Shown here: positions 30,765 to 35,411 of the stretch, piece after piece | Layout: every line of letters starts with the position of its first letter | Numbering within the stretch: the stretch's first letter is position 1 | Origin: Terriglobia bacterium | GTDB lineage: Bacteria; Acidobacteriota; Terriglobia; 20CM-2-55-15 | Direction of reading: 5' to 3' | DNA: 64,000 nucleotides | Assembly (NCBI GenBank): GCA_965218585.1 | Contig: CBDCLE010000003.1 | Location: forward strand, 32,001 to 96,000 | Translations under genes and position numbers: made by a program | Notes under the pieces: generated by a model | What the model saw: the letters and a program-made list of their open reading frames with translations, nothing else | Told to the model about the DNA's origin: nothing | The model's database searches: none

Positions 30765-30794
30765 TTGACAGGATTTCGGGCCGGCGAGTAACAT
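30765..30794 (+). promoter_or_regulatory. Putative sigma70 promoter TTGACA-N18-TAACAT for the deiodinase-like gene
   Basis: Exact -35 hexamer and near-consensus -10, 56 bp upstream of ATG 30851 (RBS GGAGGT). Confidence 0.4.
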
Positions 30795-30850
30795 CAGCCC
30801 AATGGCCGACCTGCATTGAGGTCAGCTACAAACCGGAGGTAATTTTGAAC

Positions 30851-31889
30851 ATGAAATCGTTCATAGCCATCTTGCTGCTGTTGACCGGCCTCACGGCGTG
30901 TTCAGCACCAGGCCCCGAACCCACCGATTCTTCAGAAGACGCCCGGAATGCTGTAGCGCCCGAGTTTCGACCGGCTCCCTTTGGGGCGCAGGCGCCTCCA
31001 CTGACGGATCCAGTCGACATCGAAGCCATCGATCAGTTGAGCAGAGACTGGATTGCGACGTTCGAGGGAGGAAATCCCGAGCCTGTGGAGTTCATGTTTG
31101 CACGTGAAGCGATCTTTCTCACCACAGAGCACGAAGCCCTGTTGGCCGAGGGGGCCGCATCGGCTAAGGTTCTGTTCGAGAATTCACTGCCCGGTTAGCA
31201 TTAACGGACGCGGTGAATCAAGACGAGGGCCAGAATTGGGCTTCGTACAAGGCGCTTTTCGAGCTCGGGCTCACGCCAAAGAGCGGTGGCGAATGATCCA
31301 ATTCGACGGTAACTTTTTTGTCCGGTTTCACCGGGAGCCGGACGGCACCTTCGAAGTGATGCACGGTCCCCTCGAAGGCGAACCCGCGTCCGACTTCACG
31401 TTGAACTACATGAAGGGGAACGGTTCATCGGTCCAACTCTCCAGCTTGCGGGATAAGCCGACAGTTCTTGTTTTCGGCAGTTACACGTGAGGACCCTTCC
31501 GTTCCGGTGTCGGTGACATCGAAGATTGGTACCAAGCTTATAAGAATCAGGCTCACTTTCTCTTCGTCTACATCGAAGAAGCCCACTCGCTCCAGGGTTG
31601 GGTGACCGAGGGCAACGAAGCAGCAGGCATCCAGATCAACGACCACACAAGCTATGAAGAGAGGGAAGCGGTTGCAGAACTCTGCACGACGGCTCTGGAC
31701 CTAACCGTGCCAGCCATAATCGACAAGTTCGACAACGCCGTGGAGATCGCCTATGGGGGGTTCCCGGATCGCATCTACGTTGTCGACTCTGATGGGATCG
31801 TGCGGTACAAGACCAAGCAAGGACCCTTCGGGTGGGACATTCCGGAGGCGACCTCAGCCCTGGACGGCGTCCTCGAAGGCGGTTCTTGA
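30851..31889 (+). CDS. Lipoprotein: SnoaL/NTF2-like domain fused to iodothyronine deiodinase-like selenoprotein domain (UGA=Sec at 31488-31490; two 1-bp frameshifts near 31181 and 31273)
   Basis: LTAC lipobox; KPTVLVFGSYT-TGA-GPFR continues in frame to FLFVYIEEAH..GW, YGGFPDRIYVV, GPFGW, which are deiodinase signatures. Confidence 0.85.
31491..31525 (+). promoter_or_regulatory. Bacterial SECIS-like hairpin
   Basis: CGGTGTC-GGT-GACATCG stem (31505-31521) with a G-led apical loop 21 nt after the UGA. Confidence 0.65.
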
Positions 31890-31934
31890 CCGTATGGTGG
31901 AAGTCAGAAGCGCGGGATGGGCAGTTGTTGTTCT

Positions 31935-32932
31935 TTAACGGTCCTCAAACCCGTTCGTCATCGGGCGGTCCCTTGTGGGAGGAGGCGTTTCGCACGGCGA
32001 GGGCATCCATTTGGAGCCGTCCGGTTCTTTCTTGAAGTGTGAAGTGGTGACGAACGGAACAGCGAGGTAGATGGGGTCTTCGACGATCGTGGTCACGACG
32101 AACCATTCCTCCCATTCGCCTCCGTGAAACGATCGAAGTATTCGGTCATGATGGCGTTCTCGCTATAGGGCACGCCATTGGCCCGCAGGTATCCTGCCTT
32201 CAGGTTGGTCGTCATCGCCAACAGATTACCGCCCCGTGTCCCTCCCCCTTGACCTCGACCCTCAGGTGCAGGATTTTCAACACCTTCGGCCGCGCCCCTC
32301 GGAAGCCCTTCGTCGTCGGCCGGTGGCCGATCGGTGTCAGCCGGTGGTCCGCCACCGCGCCTGAATCCGCGGCGACCGCCACCACGCGCGGCCATGTTCT
32401 CCCACTGCCCAACCGAATACCCCTGCCAGGCAGCCTCTTGCTGTGGGCGTGCTGCGATCATCGCGATCAGGGACTGCGGCTGGTTCTCGGGAGCAAAGTG
32501 GATCCGGCGTGTTTGCGTTCCGTTATCGGTGTCGATTTTCAGCGTGAGGTCGTTCTCCCACGTGATGCGGAGGCGTGTCGGCGTCCGCATGATCGCTGCC
32601 GCGCCAAACGCCCGGCACTGATTGCCCGCGGCGTTGTCTGCCGCGAGGTCCCACGTGTCGGCGACCCGAGTGCCCTCCGGGTTGAGCGGCATGCTGTCAT
32701 AGTCACCCTTGGGCGGCGTCAGCATCCGCCAGCGCCAGTCCTCGCTCACAATGGACACCCAGTTTCCCGTGAGATCGATCAGAGCTCCTGCCTGGCCTGG
32801 TCTGATGGGAGGAGGGGCCCCCCTTCCGCGCTGGGCGGCGAGTTCGATGGTGTTGAGGCTCAATATTGCCAATACCGCAGTAGCGGCGATGACGAGGCGA
32901 GGGGTGCGTTCTCGGGTCAGTGTCCCTTGCAT
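31935..32932 (-). pseudogene. Secreted protein related to the DUF6152 partner domain, frameshift near 32112
   Basis: DLTGNWV, QCRAFG, QGYSVGQWE; adding one G gives EWFVVTTIVEDPIYL...SPC to the stop at 31935. Confidence 0.7.
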
Positions 32933-33943: not shown

Positions 33944-35411
33944 TACTACTATGTTACAAACGAAGCGGTCCACAGAACGGACAACGAGGAAGCTGCTGAA
34001 TCAGGAAGCGGGCGATGCGAATGCGAAGCGTGGCAATCGAGCAGGGGTTATGTCGTTCGGGCCGGATCCGGGGTTCCGCGGGGTTTGAAGTGTTTGGGGA
34101 GTTTGGGGACGGATAGTCCAACATGCTCGACAAATGCAGAGGGGGAAAAACGGCTCCGCTCGGCGACCAGGAACCCATAAGAGGCAATACATAAGGTGCC
34201 ATGATGGTGAAATCCACGCCAGCCGCGACCTTCGTAGTGTCCCAGACCGAGTTCCTGCTTGAGTTCCTGATAGTCGCGTTCGATGATCCAGCGCTGTTTG
34301 GCCTGACCGGCCAGATCGGAAAGCGAGGTATGGGCCCCAAGAGTGGAGAGCCAGTACCGGATCGGTTCGGATGCGGTCTTGGGCCACTCGACCAACAACC
34401 ACTCTTTCGGATGCGGCGAGTGGCGCTCGTGATCCAGATGAGCGGGACGAATGCGAACTGCGGCGAAACGGGAACGCAGGGTCTCGGAGGTGCCTTCGCG
34501 CCAGGAGACGTTCTTCCAACGCTGGGGAGACAACGAGAGGGCCAGTTGCTTGACCGAAACCGGTTGATGTTTCTTGTTGCGCTGCATGCGGGTCGGTGTC
34601 CGTCCGCGGCCGGTCAAGGATTTCGGCGGCAAGGGACCCTGGCCCGGTTTCCACACGGTCGTGGTGCCTTGCACCCCTAGGACGTAGCTAAGTCCGAGTT
34701 CGGTGATGCCGTGCCGGAACTTGTAGTTGTTGCCGTAGGCCGTATCGCCCAGAACCGGTGCCGGAGCAATGCCGTCATCGACGGCCTGCCGGATTTGTTC
34801 CAAAGCAATTTGAGGTTTAGTTTGAAATCGAACGTCTTCGGGAATAGCGGCTTTGCTTCGACGTTCCGGATCCTTCGCCCAGGTCTCGGGGAGGTAGAGT
34901 CGCCATGCCACCGGCAAGCTGGATTTCGCTGTCGCCACCGACAGGCTCACCGCCACCCGGCAGTTCTCAGGTTTGCCGACCTGTCCACAGTATTGCCGGG
35001 CCACACCCACCGAGTGGGTCCCCTTTTTCACGAATCCGGTGTCGTCGACAATCCAGGCTTCAATCGGACCGTTGGCTTCCATCGCCCCCAGCGCGTACTG
35101 TCGAACTTCTGCCAACAGAGCCGCATCGTCCCAGGGCGCATCCGCGACCAGATGATGTAGCGACTGGTGCATTCGGCGTACATTATCCGGAGCCAATCGT
35201 GCAGCCATCGGCTCCACACTCTTACGTTTGATCGGCAGCAACAACCCGGTGCAGTACGACTTCAACGGTTCATGACGATCGGCGTGTCCTGCGGCCGACG
35301 CCAGGCGTTCCAAATAGGCCGCAAAACGTTTTTCCTGAGTGCCTGGCGCCTTCGATTTGGCGCTCATGACCGGATGCTAACATAAAATAGACCGTTTGTA
35401 ACATAGTAGTA
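33944..35411 (-). mobile_element. IS701-family insertion sequence, copy 2 (1468 bp, inverted relative to copy 1)
   Basis: 19-bp TIR TACTACTATGTTACAAACG at both ends; flanks ATAG / GTAG are not identical. Confidence 0.95.
34048..35367 (-). CDS. IS701-family transposase (same protein as 9861-11180)
   Basis: Identical 439-aa translation. Confidence 0.95.
   Translation of the reverse strand: MSAKSKAPGTQEKRFAAYLERLASAAGHADRHEPLKSYCTGLLLPIKRKSVEPMAARLAPDNVRRMHQSLHHLVADAPWDDAALLAEVRQYALGAMEANGPIEAWIVDDTGFVKKGTHSVGVARQYCGQVGKPENCRVAVSLSVATAKSSLPVAWRLYLPETWAKDPERRSKAAIPEDVRFQTKPQIALEQIRQAVDDGIAPAPVLGDTAYGNNYKFRHGITELGLSYVLGVQGTTTVWKPGQGPLPPKSLTGRGRTPTRMQRNKKHQPVSVKQLALSLSPQRWKNVSWREGTSETLRSRFAAVRIRPAHLDHERHSPHPKEWLLVEWPKTASEPIRYWLSTLGAHTSLSDLAGQAKQRWIIERDYQELKQELGLGHYEGRGWRGFHHHGTLCIASYGFLVAERSRFSPSAFVEHVGLSVPKLPKHFKPRGTPDPARTT

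What the first reader, a model, noticed from the sequence alone, without database searches (positions are those of the whole stretch)
31380..31889. Hidden selenoprotein: deiodinase-like domain read through an in-frame UGA with a SECIS-like hairpin
Seen: the ORF track stops at VLVFGSYT* (TGA 31488-90), but the frame continues GPFRSGVGDIEDWYQAYKNQAHFLFVYIEEAHSLQGW...YGGFPDRIYVV...GPFGW. A 7-bp stem CGGTGTC/GACATCG with a GGT loop sits 21 nt after the UGA. Known: iodothyronine deiodinases have FGSCTUPxF and FLxVYIxEAH, and bacterial SECIS elements lie just 3' of the UGA with G in the apical loop. Inference: UGA is Sec and the product is a deiodinase-like reductive dehalogenase or redox enzyme.
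Basis: partly seen in the sequence, partly recalled or inferred. Interest (0 to 1): 0.9.

Follow-up and report, generated by a model that had tools for sequence, protein, structure and literature searches.

The report
Deiodinase-like selenoprotein gene, broken upstream
The in-frame TGA is a genuine selenocysteine codon of a bacterial deiodinase-like redox enzyme, a family known since 2005, but this copy is the tail of a longer lipoprotein gene that two single-base deletions have broken in this strain.

Summary
The frame reads ...FGSYT-TGA(31488-90)-GPFR... and stays open to 31889. A 7-bp hairpin with a GGU loop lies at 31505-31521.

The read-through product is a deiodinase-family domain. It scores 94 bits on Pfam PF00837, matches mouse Dio3 and Dio2 by sequence at E about 1e-18, and those two are the top fold hits. 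The TGA falls in the same column in 31 of 32 aligned homologues; the other has Cys. The genome holds selA, selB, selD and tRNA-Sec, and three such paralogues, each with one TGA.

This family was described as "deiodinase-like protein" in 2005 (PMC1088965), so the kind is not new.

Same-family relatives (record titles name Acidobacteria/Terriglobia MAGs) encode one ORF of about 335 aa: lipoprotein signal, DUF4440/NTF2-like domain, then the Sec domain. The window copy lacks one base after 31184 and one after 31294. Contigs from a second study carry both deletions, and a roughly 94%-identical co-occurring strain carries the two missing bases. The copy is therefore either a recent pseudogene or a truncated stand-alone domain. 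selA is also frameshifted in the assembly; this was not checked against reads.

The parts
30765..30794 (+). Sigma-70-like promoter match (TTGACA, 18 nt, TAACAT), about 50 nt upstream of the start of the fusion gene
   Evidence: 1 site found, 0.4 expected from shuffles. This is a consensus match only.
30845..31198 (+). First piece of the broken gene (117 codons): lipoprotein-type signal peptide ending in Cys, then the N-terminal half of the DUF4440/NTF2-like domain. It runs into TAG 31196-98 because one base is missing after 31184.
   Evidence: Relatives match at E 6e-6 to 9e-4 within single ORFs of 211-214 codons that end at the Sec TGA. An 'A' is put in behind 31184 in the variant contig. The lipobox was read by eye; Pfam LPAM_1 gives only E 0.27.
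31185..31294 (+). Middle piece of the DUF4440/NTF2-like domain, now in the next frame (...NWASYKALFELGLTPKSGGE). It ends at TGA 31294-96 because one base is missing after 31294.
   Evidence: translation lines up with the orthologues' ...WVSYYADYTLTLTPRDGGD.... A 'C' is put in behind 31294 in the variant contig. All 7 listed strain differences here fall on third codon positions of this frame (my count from table 3).
31293..31889 (+). Open frame of 198 codons plus stop. The first ~22 codons are the last strands of the NTF2-like domain; the rest is the deiodinase-like thioredoxin-fold domain with Sec at codon 66. The second deletion creates the ATG at 31293 and it overlaps the previous frame's TGA (ATGA).
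   Evidence: PF00837, 94 bits; NF038285, 180 bits, below its 250 cut-off.
31488..31490 (+). Sec codon TGA in the motif GSYT-U-GPF
   Evidence: Same column is TGA in 31 of 32 aligned loci and Cys in 1. Seven Cys-form database homologues have Cys there and one has Gly. The TGA is unchanged in every contig that covers it (X1, X2 record 2, X3 record 9).
31505..31521 (+). Bacterial SECIS-type hairpin: 7-bp stem, GGU apical loop, loop 21 nt after the UGA
   Evidence: -8.1 kcal/mol with flanking bases, -6.6 bare. The orthologues keep the hairpin with a G-C to A-U double change at the sixth pair from the loop (31506 with 31520).
31887..31889 (+). Terminating TGA of the gene, with no hairpin claimed after it

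Best explanation
Window 30845-31889 (+) is one ancestral gene for an exported, probably lipid-anchored, selenoprotein. It consists of a signal peptide with a lipobox Cys, a DUF4440/NTF2-like domain, and a deiodinase-family thioredoxin-fold domain whose nucleophile is selenocysteine, encoded by TGA 31488-90. SelB and tRNA-Sec would decode that TGA with the help of the hairpin at 31505-31521. By analogy with Dio2/Dio3 and 1-Cys peroxiredoxins, the selenolate attacks an electrophilic atom of a small substrate, either a peroxide oxygen or a halogen on an aromatic ring. Most of the conserved Ser-Thr-Tyr-Glu-His proton relay assists. An external thioredoxin-like CxxC partner would reduce the oxidised selenium, since no resolving Cys is conserved in the domain. 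In this strain the gene has lost one base after 31184 and one after 31294. The signal peptide and the NTF2-like domain are therefore cut off from the Sec domain. What remains is an intact 198-codon Sec-domain frame behind an ATG that the second deletion created. The copy is most likely a recent pseudogene. Shown: domain identity, Sec column, SECIS conservation, Sec machinery genes, the fusion architecture in relatives, and the reality of the deletions. Inferred: export, chemistry, reductant, and loss of function.
For: Family and fold:
- PF00837 scores 94 bits against a cut-off of 27.
- Mouse Dio3 4tr3 matches at E 3.7e-18 and Dio2 9h48 at 1.1e-17 by sequence.
- The AlphaFold model has pLDDT 92.1. 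Its best Foldseek hits are 9h48 (9.8e-15) and 4tr3 (6.4e-14); the next best is 1.9e-9.

Sec codon:
- 33 of 36 family matches in 301 genomes of the phylum carry exactly one TGA, and 3 carry none. Three of the 33 are from unpublished genomes.
- 31 U and 1 C fall at one column in 32 aligned loci. Without the unpublished rows it is 28 U and 1 C of 29.
- Three paralogues in this genome each have TGA in GSYT-U-xPF.

SECIS:
- The window hairpin meets all four rules quoted in PMC13188914.
- 29 of 31 homologues have such a hairpin. There are 22 distinct hairpin sequences among those 29.
- Orthologues show a compensatory G-C to A-U change that costs two amino-acid changes.

Machinery:
- selB 376 bits, selA 484 bits, selD 356 bits (itself with one TGA), tRNA-Sec 73 bits with anticodon TCA.

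Fusion:
- Orthologues L061, L064 and L065 are single ORFs.
- The L061 product (334 aa) has DUF4440 at 53-163 and T4_deiodinase at 173-331.
- 33 of the 35 best database clusters end exactly at FGS[YF]T, so gene callers cut them at the UGA.
- P0024 carries an extra TlpA-like WCAPC thioredoxin domain.

Deletions:
- The X3 variant contig has the two missing bases. X2 record 2 (another study) and X4 record 13 match the window exactly across both sites.
- rpoB and rpoC are unbroken, so the assembly is not riddled with indels.

Catalytic residues:
- Ser, Tyr, Glu, His and Phe are kept in 29 of 29 rows and Thr in 28 of 29. Their roles are as described in PMC11592359.
Against: - The hairpin alone is not significant: z = 0.32 for the 76-nt fold. 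The bare 17-mer is -6.6 kcal/mol, above the -7.5 rule; it passes only with flanking bases. Two of 31 homologues had no hairpin under my strict rules.
- No Rfam family matched.
- One homologue cluster (P0017) has Gly at the Sec column.
- NF038285 is matched below its cut-off (180 against 250 bits), and only over its C-terminal half.
- selA is frameshifted in the assembly near model position 410, whereas 5 of 5 family relatives have it in one piece. If real, Sec insertion may be impaired in this strain.
- Against 'pseudogene': the 198-codon frame has no stop other than the Sec codon, 23 of the 27 listed differences from the sister strain in this frame lie at third codon positions (my count), and the new ATG overlaps the upstream TGA as in coupled genes. 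A stand-alone product is therefore possible.
- There is no expression or protein evidence. All runs laid were contigs at depth 2-4.
Confidence: 0.8

Rival explanations
1. The Sec domain is still made in this strain as a stand-alone, cytoplasmic 198-residue selenoprotein. It would start at the ATG (31293) that the second deletion created, and would resemble the genome's two short paralogues, which have no signal peptide.
For: The frame is intact except for the Sec codon. The ATG overlaps the preceding TGA as ATGA. Most differences from the sister strain are at third codon positions (23 of 27 listed). Short forms of 210 and 255 codons without signal peptides exist at C2 and C7. The model of the 198-residue product folds with pLDDT 92.
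Against: The third-position bias is also what a very recent pseudogene would show. By eye I saw no clear Shine-Dalgarno sequence at useful spacing, and there is no promoter-like site between 30795 and 31293. The upstream frame that would couple translation is not itself reached by ribosomes from 30845, because they stop at TAG 31196-98. The first ~22 residues are orphan strands of the lost NTF2-like domain (pLDDT 64-84). A conserved Pro of the (A/D)P(D/N)F motif is Ser in this strain, while the sister strain and the orthologues keep Pro. selA may be defective.
Confidence: 0.3
2. The two frameshifts are assembly or sequencing errors, and the strain really has the intact ~345-codon fusion gene.
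For: Depth is low: word depth is 2-4 in all four runs. X1 may be the source of the assembly. selA shows a further 1-nt frameshift, which could hint at indel errors.
Against: Contigs from a different study (X2 record 2, 734 nt, 0 differences; X4 record 13) carry both deletions. A variant contig from the same sample as X1 carries both extra bases, so the method can read these sites. Neither site is a homopolymer. rpoB and rpoC, about 8.5 kb together, are unbroken.
Confidence: 0.07
3. The TGA is an ordinary stop or a nonsense mutation, and the similarity downstream is a dead remnant. Alternatively TGA is read as another amino acid under a changed genetic code.
For: Gene callers treat it as a stop: 33 of 35 database relatives are cut there. 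The gene's own terminator is also TGA.
Against: The TGA is at the identical column in 31 of 32 loci across the phylum, with Cys in the other. A conserved hairpin follows it. The downstream sequence is conserved at protein level down to 31-45% identity. A full Sec machinery is present. TGA ends 12 of 39 long open frames in the window, so it is a normal stop elsewhere.
Confidence: 0.02

Closest known systems
Prokaryotic 'deiodinase-like protein' selenoprotein family (Zhang, Fomenko and Gladyshev 2005, PMC1088965; GOS analysis PMC2398784; reviews PMC9312934 and PMC13188914). I read passages of all four.
   Same: The Pfam PF00837 domain, Sec and Cys forms side by side, a bacterial SECIS directly after the UGA with G in a small apical loop, and an untested, presumed redox function.
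   Different: The two reviews list the motif as UxxC for their representative, whereas here it is U-(G/P)-P-F with no Cys at +3. The published cases are marine metagenome reads. These come from Acidobacteriota-type genomes (titles), with three paralogues in one genome. This one also sits in a lipoprotein-NTF2-like fusion that I did not find in print.
Vertebrate iodothyronine deiodinases Dio2/Dio3 (PDB 9h48, 4tr3)
   Same: The thioredoxin/peroxiredoxin-like fold with the Dio insertion (TM 0.74-0.75). The FGS-x-T-U-x-P-F and (V/I)YI-x-EAH motifs. The Ser, Thr, Tyr, Glu and His relay residues.
   Different: There is no N-terminal membrane helix of the animal type. The Arg275 substrate clamp is Gln here and variable across the family. 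Cys239 is not conserved. The second relay His (His219) is kept in only 2 of 29 rows, though the window copy has it. Thyroid hormones are not an expected substrate (stated in PMC1088965).
NCBIfam NF038285 'deiodinase family protein' (347 positions)
   Same: The C-terminal 170 positions match at 152-203 bits.
   Different: No hit in 301 genomes of the phylum reaches the 250-bit cut-off, and none matches the model's N-terminal half. The N-terminal domain here is DUF4440-like instead. Many full-length Cys forms in the database carry EF-hand domains. That the NF038285 N-terminus is of that EF-hand kind is my guess and was not tested.
1-Cys peroxiredoxin AhpE and TlpA/ResA-type thiol-disulfide oxidoreductases
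   Same: They are the next-best structural neighbours (E about 2e-9) and give weak Pfam AhpC-TSA/Redoxin hits. They share a single nucleophile recycled by an outside reductant.
   Different: They lack the Dio insertion, and their scores are five orders of magnitude weaker than the Dio2/Dio3 matches.

Membership tests
Iodothyronine deiodinase family (Pfam PF00837) | Profile match above the curated threshold | tested here: met
   94 bits against a cut-off of 27, E 1.1e-26, residues 53-190. The orthologue scores 85.6 bits.
Iodothyronine deiodinase family (Pfam PF00837) | Thioredoxin fold carrying the Dio-specific insertion | tested here: met
   Model pLDDT 92.1. Top Foldseek hits are Dio2 9h48 and Dio3 4tr3, with TMq 0.74-0.75 over 178-188 columns. 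The sequence alignment runs through the insertion.
Iodothyronine deiodinase family (Pfam PF00837) | Sec (or Cys) nucleophile in G-S-x-T-U-x-P-F, plus the Tyr/Glu/His of YI-x-EAH | tested here: met
   Ser 29/29, Thr 28/29, U or C 29/29, Phe 29/29, Tyr, Glu and His 29/29.
Iodothyronine deiodinase family (Pfam PF00837) | Thyronine-binding residues (Dio3 Arg275 clamp) and deiodinase activity | tested here: not met
   The Arg275 equivalent is Gln in the window and variable in the family, with no Arg in 29 rows. Activity cannot be tested here. So it belongs to the fold family but is not shown to be an iodothyronine deiodinase.
Bacterial selenoprotein gene (Sec-UGA with bSECIS) | In-frame UGA aligned with Cys or UGA in homologues | tested here: met
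   (31 U, 1 C of 32). (36 C/U, 1 G of 37).
Bacterial selenoprotein gene (Sec-UGA with bSECIS) | bSECIS model: loop 3-9 nt, upper stem 4-16 bp, G in the first two loop positions, 16-37 nt from UGA to loop, MFE at or below -7.5 kcal/mol (PMC13188914 Fig. 2 legend) | tested here: met
   Loop GGU, 7 bp, spacing 21, -8.1 kcal/mol with flanking bases. The bare 17-mer is -6.6, so the energy rule is met only narrowly. bSECISearch itself was not available.
Bacterial selenoprotein gene (Sec-UGA with bSECIS) | selA, selB, selD and tRNA-Sec in the genome | tested here: inconclusive
   All four are found above cut-off, but selA is split across two frames in the assembly.
Bacterial selenoprotein gene (Sec-UGA with bSECIS) | Selenium actually incorporated | not testable with these tools
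   Needs 75Se labelling or mass spectrometry.
NCBIfam NF038285 deiodinase_rel | Full-length match above 250 bits | tested here: not met
   180 bits over positions 173-340 only. The orthologue scores 152 bits. Not filed as a member.
DUF4440 / NTF2-like (PF14534) N-terminal domain | Profile match above threshold | tested here: inconclusive
   The intact orthologue scores 25.4 bits against a cut-off of 25.2. The window's broken pieces give no hit. JGI names several relatives 'ketosteroid isomerase-like'.

The most novel reading that the evidence does not exclude
Two things may be new. First, the NTF2-like-deiodinase-like lipoprotein, seen in at least 33 database clusters that are all miscalled as ~200-aa hypothetical proteins, and in one case fused to a TlpA-like thioredoxin, may be an undescribed cell-envelope selenoenzyme. 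Its hydrophobic-ligand domain would hand a small aromatic or lipid substrate, such as a halogenated phenolic or a lipid hydroperoxide, to a Sec active site. Second, this strain carries 1-nt deletions in both this gene and selA while its sister strain and relatives are intact. It may therefore be caught early in the loss of selenocysteine use.
Probability: 0.2. Interest if true: 0.6.

Novelty: new member of a known kind. Interest (0 to 1): 0.33.

Why it matters
It confirms that the scan can find real selenoprotein genes that gene callers cut at the UGA. Thirty-three of the 35 closest database entries stop at the Sec codon and are labelled hypothetical or 'ketosteroid isomerase-like'. The Sec/Cys deiodinase-like family still has no assayed bacterial member that I could find. 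An exported version fused to a ligand-binding NTF2-like domain, and in one case to its likely thioredoxin reductant, gives concrete hints for choosing substrates and partners. The broken copy, with an intact sister allele in the same sample, is a small natural experiment on gene decay. Together with the selA frameshift, it may bear on loss of the Sec trait. For the kind of element, though, this is an ordinary and already described family.

Tried and rejected
- Rfam scan of 31300-31700 at E up to 10: only a chance snoRNA hit, and no SECIS family.
- Single-sequence fold significance of the SECIS stretch: z = 0.32, not informative.
- Fixed-column covariation test across all homologues: given up. 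The hairpin sits in registers that differ by 1-5 nt between subfamilies. I used a per-sequence geometric scan with other codon positions as background instead. The sequences are related, so 17/31 against 6.4% is not a formal probability.
- Programmed frameshifting at 31184 or 31294: rejected. Orthologues and the sister strain have no shift, and I saw no slippery heptamer by eye.
- Polarising the four non-third-position strain differences against the orthologues: only one was informative (Pro to Ser in the window lineage at 31389). That is too little to tell a pseudogene from a live gene.
- Conserved unitigs of higher depth over 31504-31540 in X2 and X3: not used as evidence. A second such unitig lies at 31788-31822, and 31 identical bases are expected fairly often at 6% divergence.
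- Gene neighbourhood: the window has an amidohydrolase, an NHL-repeat protein, an unknown secreted protein, an MBL-fold hydrolase and a DDE_5 transposase. I only listed ORF coordinates around two orthologues and did not compare them, so I make no claim about conserved partners.
- Supplementary files of papers were not opened. The tables of deiodinase-like sequences in the supplements of PMC1088965 or PMC2398784 might already include NTF2-like fusions.
- The claim 'no bacterial member assayed' rests on the searches (listings) and on passages of PMC13188914.
- The claim that the fusion is not in print rests on the searches, which returned 0 papers each.
- Not run: complex prediction, the search of protein representatives and the protein-atlas search.
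Full report
**1. The observation**

The sequence is as described. The ORF list ends an open frame at ...VLVFGSYT with TGA 31488-31490. Translating 31293-31889 with TGA read as U gives 198 residues with a single internal TGA. No TAA or TAG occurs before the terminal TGA at 31887-31889.

The hairpin is at 31505-31511 / 31515-31521 with loop GGT 31512-31514. The stem starts 14 nt after the TGA and the loop 21 nt after it. Taken alone the stretch does not fold better than shuffles (z = 0.32). The case for the hairpin has to come from comparison with homologues.

**2. What the domain is**

- The read-through protein hits Pfam T4_deiodinase at 94 bits (cut-off 27). AhpC-TSA and Redoxin score far lower.
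- It hits NCBIfam NF038285 'deiodinase family protein' at 180 bits. That is below the 250-bit cut-off, and only over model positions 173-340 of 347.
- Against PDB sequences the best matches are mouse Dio3 (4tr3, E 3.7e-18) and Dio2 (9h48, 1.1e-17). The alignments run through FGS-x-T-C/U-x-PF and YIEEAH.
- An AlphaFold model built on a 37-sequence alignment has mean pLDDT 92.1 and pTM 0.89.
- Foldseek ranks 9h48 (9.8e-15) and 4tr3 (6.4e-14) first. The next hits (Geobacter thioredoxin-like 3kcm, AhpE, ResA) are around 2e-9.

The domain therefore belongs to the deiodinase fold family.

**3. Is the TGA selenocysteine?**

Paralogues in this genome:
- The genome (4.55 Mb, 26 contigs) holds three paralogues, each with exactly one in-frame TGA.
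- All three read GSYT-U-xPF.

Sample of the phylum:
- In a sample of 301 genomes of the phylum, 34 had a match at E <= 1e-20.
- Of the 36 matches, 33 had exactly one TGA and 3 had none. Three of the 33 are from genomes flagged unpublished.
- I aligned the 32 matches that were given loci. 31 have U and one has Cys in the same column. Without the unpublished rows it is 28 U and 1 C of 29.
- Seven Cys-form proteins from the protein database have Cys there. One cluster (P0017) has Gly.

Sec machinery:
- selB scores 376 bits, selA 484 bits and selD 356 bits. selD itself has one TGA.
- tRNA-Sec scores 73 bits and ARAGORN gives anticodon TCA.
- TGA is an ordinary stop elsewhere in the window, ending 12 of 39 long frames.

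**4. The SECIS element**

The bacterial SECIS rules quoted in the Fig. 2 legend of PMC13188914 are:
- an apical loop of 3-9 nt;
- an upper stem of 4-16 bp;
- a G in the first two loop positions;
- 16-37 nt between the UGA and the loop;
- an MFE at or below -7.5 kcal/mol.

The window hairpin has a GGU loop, a 7-bp stem and a spacing of 21 nt. Its energy is -8.1 kcal/mol with flanking bases, and -6.6 as the bare 17-mer.

I scanned 31 homologous genes that carry a UGA: 28 from published loci, including the three own copies, plus three orthologues. Twenty-nine had a hairpin with this geometry. In 17 the bare stem was at or below -7.5 kcal/mol. Only 217 of 3369 (6.4%) other codon positions in the same genes reached that. 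The sequences are related, so this is a contrast and not a P-value.

The 29 hairpins comprise 22 different sequences, and every one of the first five pairs from the loop shows several Watson-Crick pair types. Between the window and its orthologues one pair changes from G-C to A-U. The price is Gly to Ser and Ile to Thr in the protein. This shows that the RNA pairing is kept.

Rfam has no matching family.

**5.

After it, a stretch in the next frame (31195-31295) still looks coding.

Searching that ORF in the class found weak matches in same-family genomes. There it is the start of a single ORF that runs straight into FGS(Y/F)T-TGA. Read through, those ORFs continue to full lengths of 334-337 residues. 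The intact orthologue has DUF4440 (25.4 bits, residues 53-163) followed by T4_deiodinase (85.6 bits, 173-331).

The window gene is therefore the same fusion, split over three frames:
- 30845-31184;
- 31185-31294;
- 31295-31889.

Laying public contigs on 30800-31900 gave these results:
- A variant contig about 94% identical, from a run of the same sample as the best holder, has an A put in behind 31184 and a C put in behind 31294. These are exactly the two junctions. With them the frame reads ...LFENYTARLALTD... and ...KSGGESIQFDG..., which matches the orthologues.
- Contigs of a different study (X2 record 2, 30800-31533, no differences; X4 record 13, 31117-31353) carry the window's version with both bases missing.
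- The TGA at 31488-90 is unchanged in all contigs that cover it.

Neither deletion site is a homopolymer. rpoB and rpoC (open frames of 1430 and 1401 codons) are unbroken. I conclude that the two deletions are real features of this lineage, although depth is only 2-4.

The second deletion creates the ATG at 31293, which overlaps the TGA of the middle frame. A promoter-like site lies only upstream of 30845.

**6. Is this copy alive?**

The evidence is mixed.

*For a recent pseudogene:*
- Ribosomes starting at 30845 stop at TAG 31196-98.
- The NTF2-like domain is cut in three, and the signal peptide is separated from the catalytic domain.
- A conserved Pro is Ser in this lineage only.

*For a surviving stand-alone domain:*
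- The 198-codon frame is clean.
- 23 of the 27 listed differences from the sister strain in that frame are at third codon positions (my count, which says 3 further differences are not shown).
- The genome's other two paralogues are short forms without a signal peptide.

I put about 0.5 on pseudogene, 0.3 on an expressed remnant, and 0.07 on assembly error.

*A further complication:* selA is split between two frames near model position 410 in this assembly. The pattern looks like another 1-nt deletion. In 5 of 5 genomes of the same family selA matches in one piece.

**7. How the intact protein probably works**

*Shown:*
- Ser, Tyr, Glu and His of the Dio proton relay, and the Phe after Sec, are invariant in 29 rows; Thr is kept in 28 of 29. 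Their roles are described in passages of PMC11592359.
- The second relay His (Dio3 His219) is kept in 2 of 29 rows, one of which is the window copy.
- The equivalents of the Dio3 Arg275 carboxylate clamp and of Cys239 are not conserved. The residue numbering was checked against the 4tr3 chain. The role of Cys239 as resolving Cys is recalled, not read.
- A different Cys, in the helix after the insertion, is present in 14 of 29 rows.

*Inferred:*
- The enzyme uses a selenolate nucleophile and needs an outside thiol reductant.
- One relative (P0024) has a TlpA-like WCAPC thioredoxin domain fused in front, which names a plausible partner.
- The signal peptide with a lipobox-like Cys places the intact protein in the cell envelope. 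My crude pattern finds the lipobox in 18 of 35 top relatives.
- The NTF2-like domain suggests a small hydrophobic ligand.

I cannot decide between peroxide reduction and reductive dehalogenation. I would put roughly 0.35 on the first and 0.25 on the second, with the remainder on other thiol/selenol redox chemistry.

**8. Comparison with what is known**

Prokaryotic deiodinase-like selenoproteins, with Cys homologues and bacterial SECIS elements, were reported from the Sargasso Sea in 2005 (PMC1088965, passages). They were counted again in the GOS data as 22 Sec and 21 Cys sequences (PMC2398784, passage). They are listed in the 2022 and 2026 reviews.

The kind is therefore known. What I did not find in print is the DUF4440/NTF2-like lipoprotein fusion, or its occurrence in Acidobacteriota (0 papers). 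Supplements were not available.

In the protein database the fusion is common but hidden. Thirty-three of the 35 best clusters end exactly at FGS(Y/F)T, and they are named hypothetical or 'ketosteroid isomerase-like'.

The relatives' record titles read 'Acidobacteria bacterium' and 'Terriglobia bacterium' MAGs.

**9. Verdict**

- It is not novel as a kind.
- It misses that this copy is the tail of a frameshift-broken fusion gene.
- Interest is moderate to low (0.33). The hidden fusion family and the possible decay of Sec use in this strain are the parts worth a follow-up.

Noticed in passing
own genome C2:238246-239591 (-), outside the window (locus L014): selA is split over two frames near model position 410, which looks like a 1-nt deletion in ...GVALS|GEDLSASELEKRL.... 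Five of 5 genomes of the same family have selA in one piece. If real, Sec synthesis may be impaired in this strain.
   Followed up: partly
own genome C2:181463-181987 (-) and C7:42059-42574 (-) (loci L001, L003): Two more deiodinase-like paralogues. They are short forms without a signal peptide, each with one TGA in GSYT-U-PPF followed by a 5-bp hairpin whose first pair differs by a compensatory G-C to C-G change.
   Followed up: partly
own genome C4:113004-113927 (-) (locus L018): selD itself carries one in-frame TGA, so selenophosphate synthetase is probably a selenoprotein here.
   Followed up: no
window 34048-35367 (-): A DDE_5-family transposase (286 bits) lies 2 kb downstream of the broken gene. 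The sister-strain contig departs from the window right after the stop codon at 31889 (loose end), so this neighbourhood seems rearranged between strains.
   Followed up: no
protein P0017 (database cluster, 290 aa): A relative of the fusion has Gly at the Sec/Cys column (GSYT-G-GGF), so it cannot do Sec or Cys redox chemistry. It may be a pseudo-enzyme or a sequencing artefact.
   Followed up: no
protein P0024 (database cluster, 362 aa, cut at the UGA): A four-part version: lipoprotein signal, TlpA-like thioredoxin domain (WCAPC), NTF2-like domain and deiodinase-like domain. This is a hint at the physiological reductant.
   Followed up: no
window 32093-32932 (-): A 279-codon ORF with a signal-like N-terminus, an Arg/Gly-rich low-complexity stretch and no Pfam hit.
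   Followed up: no
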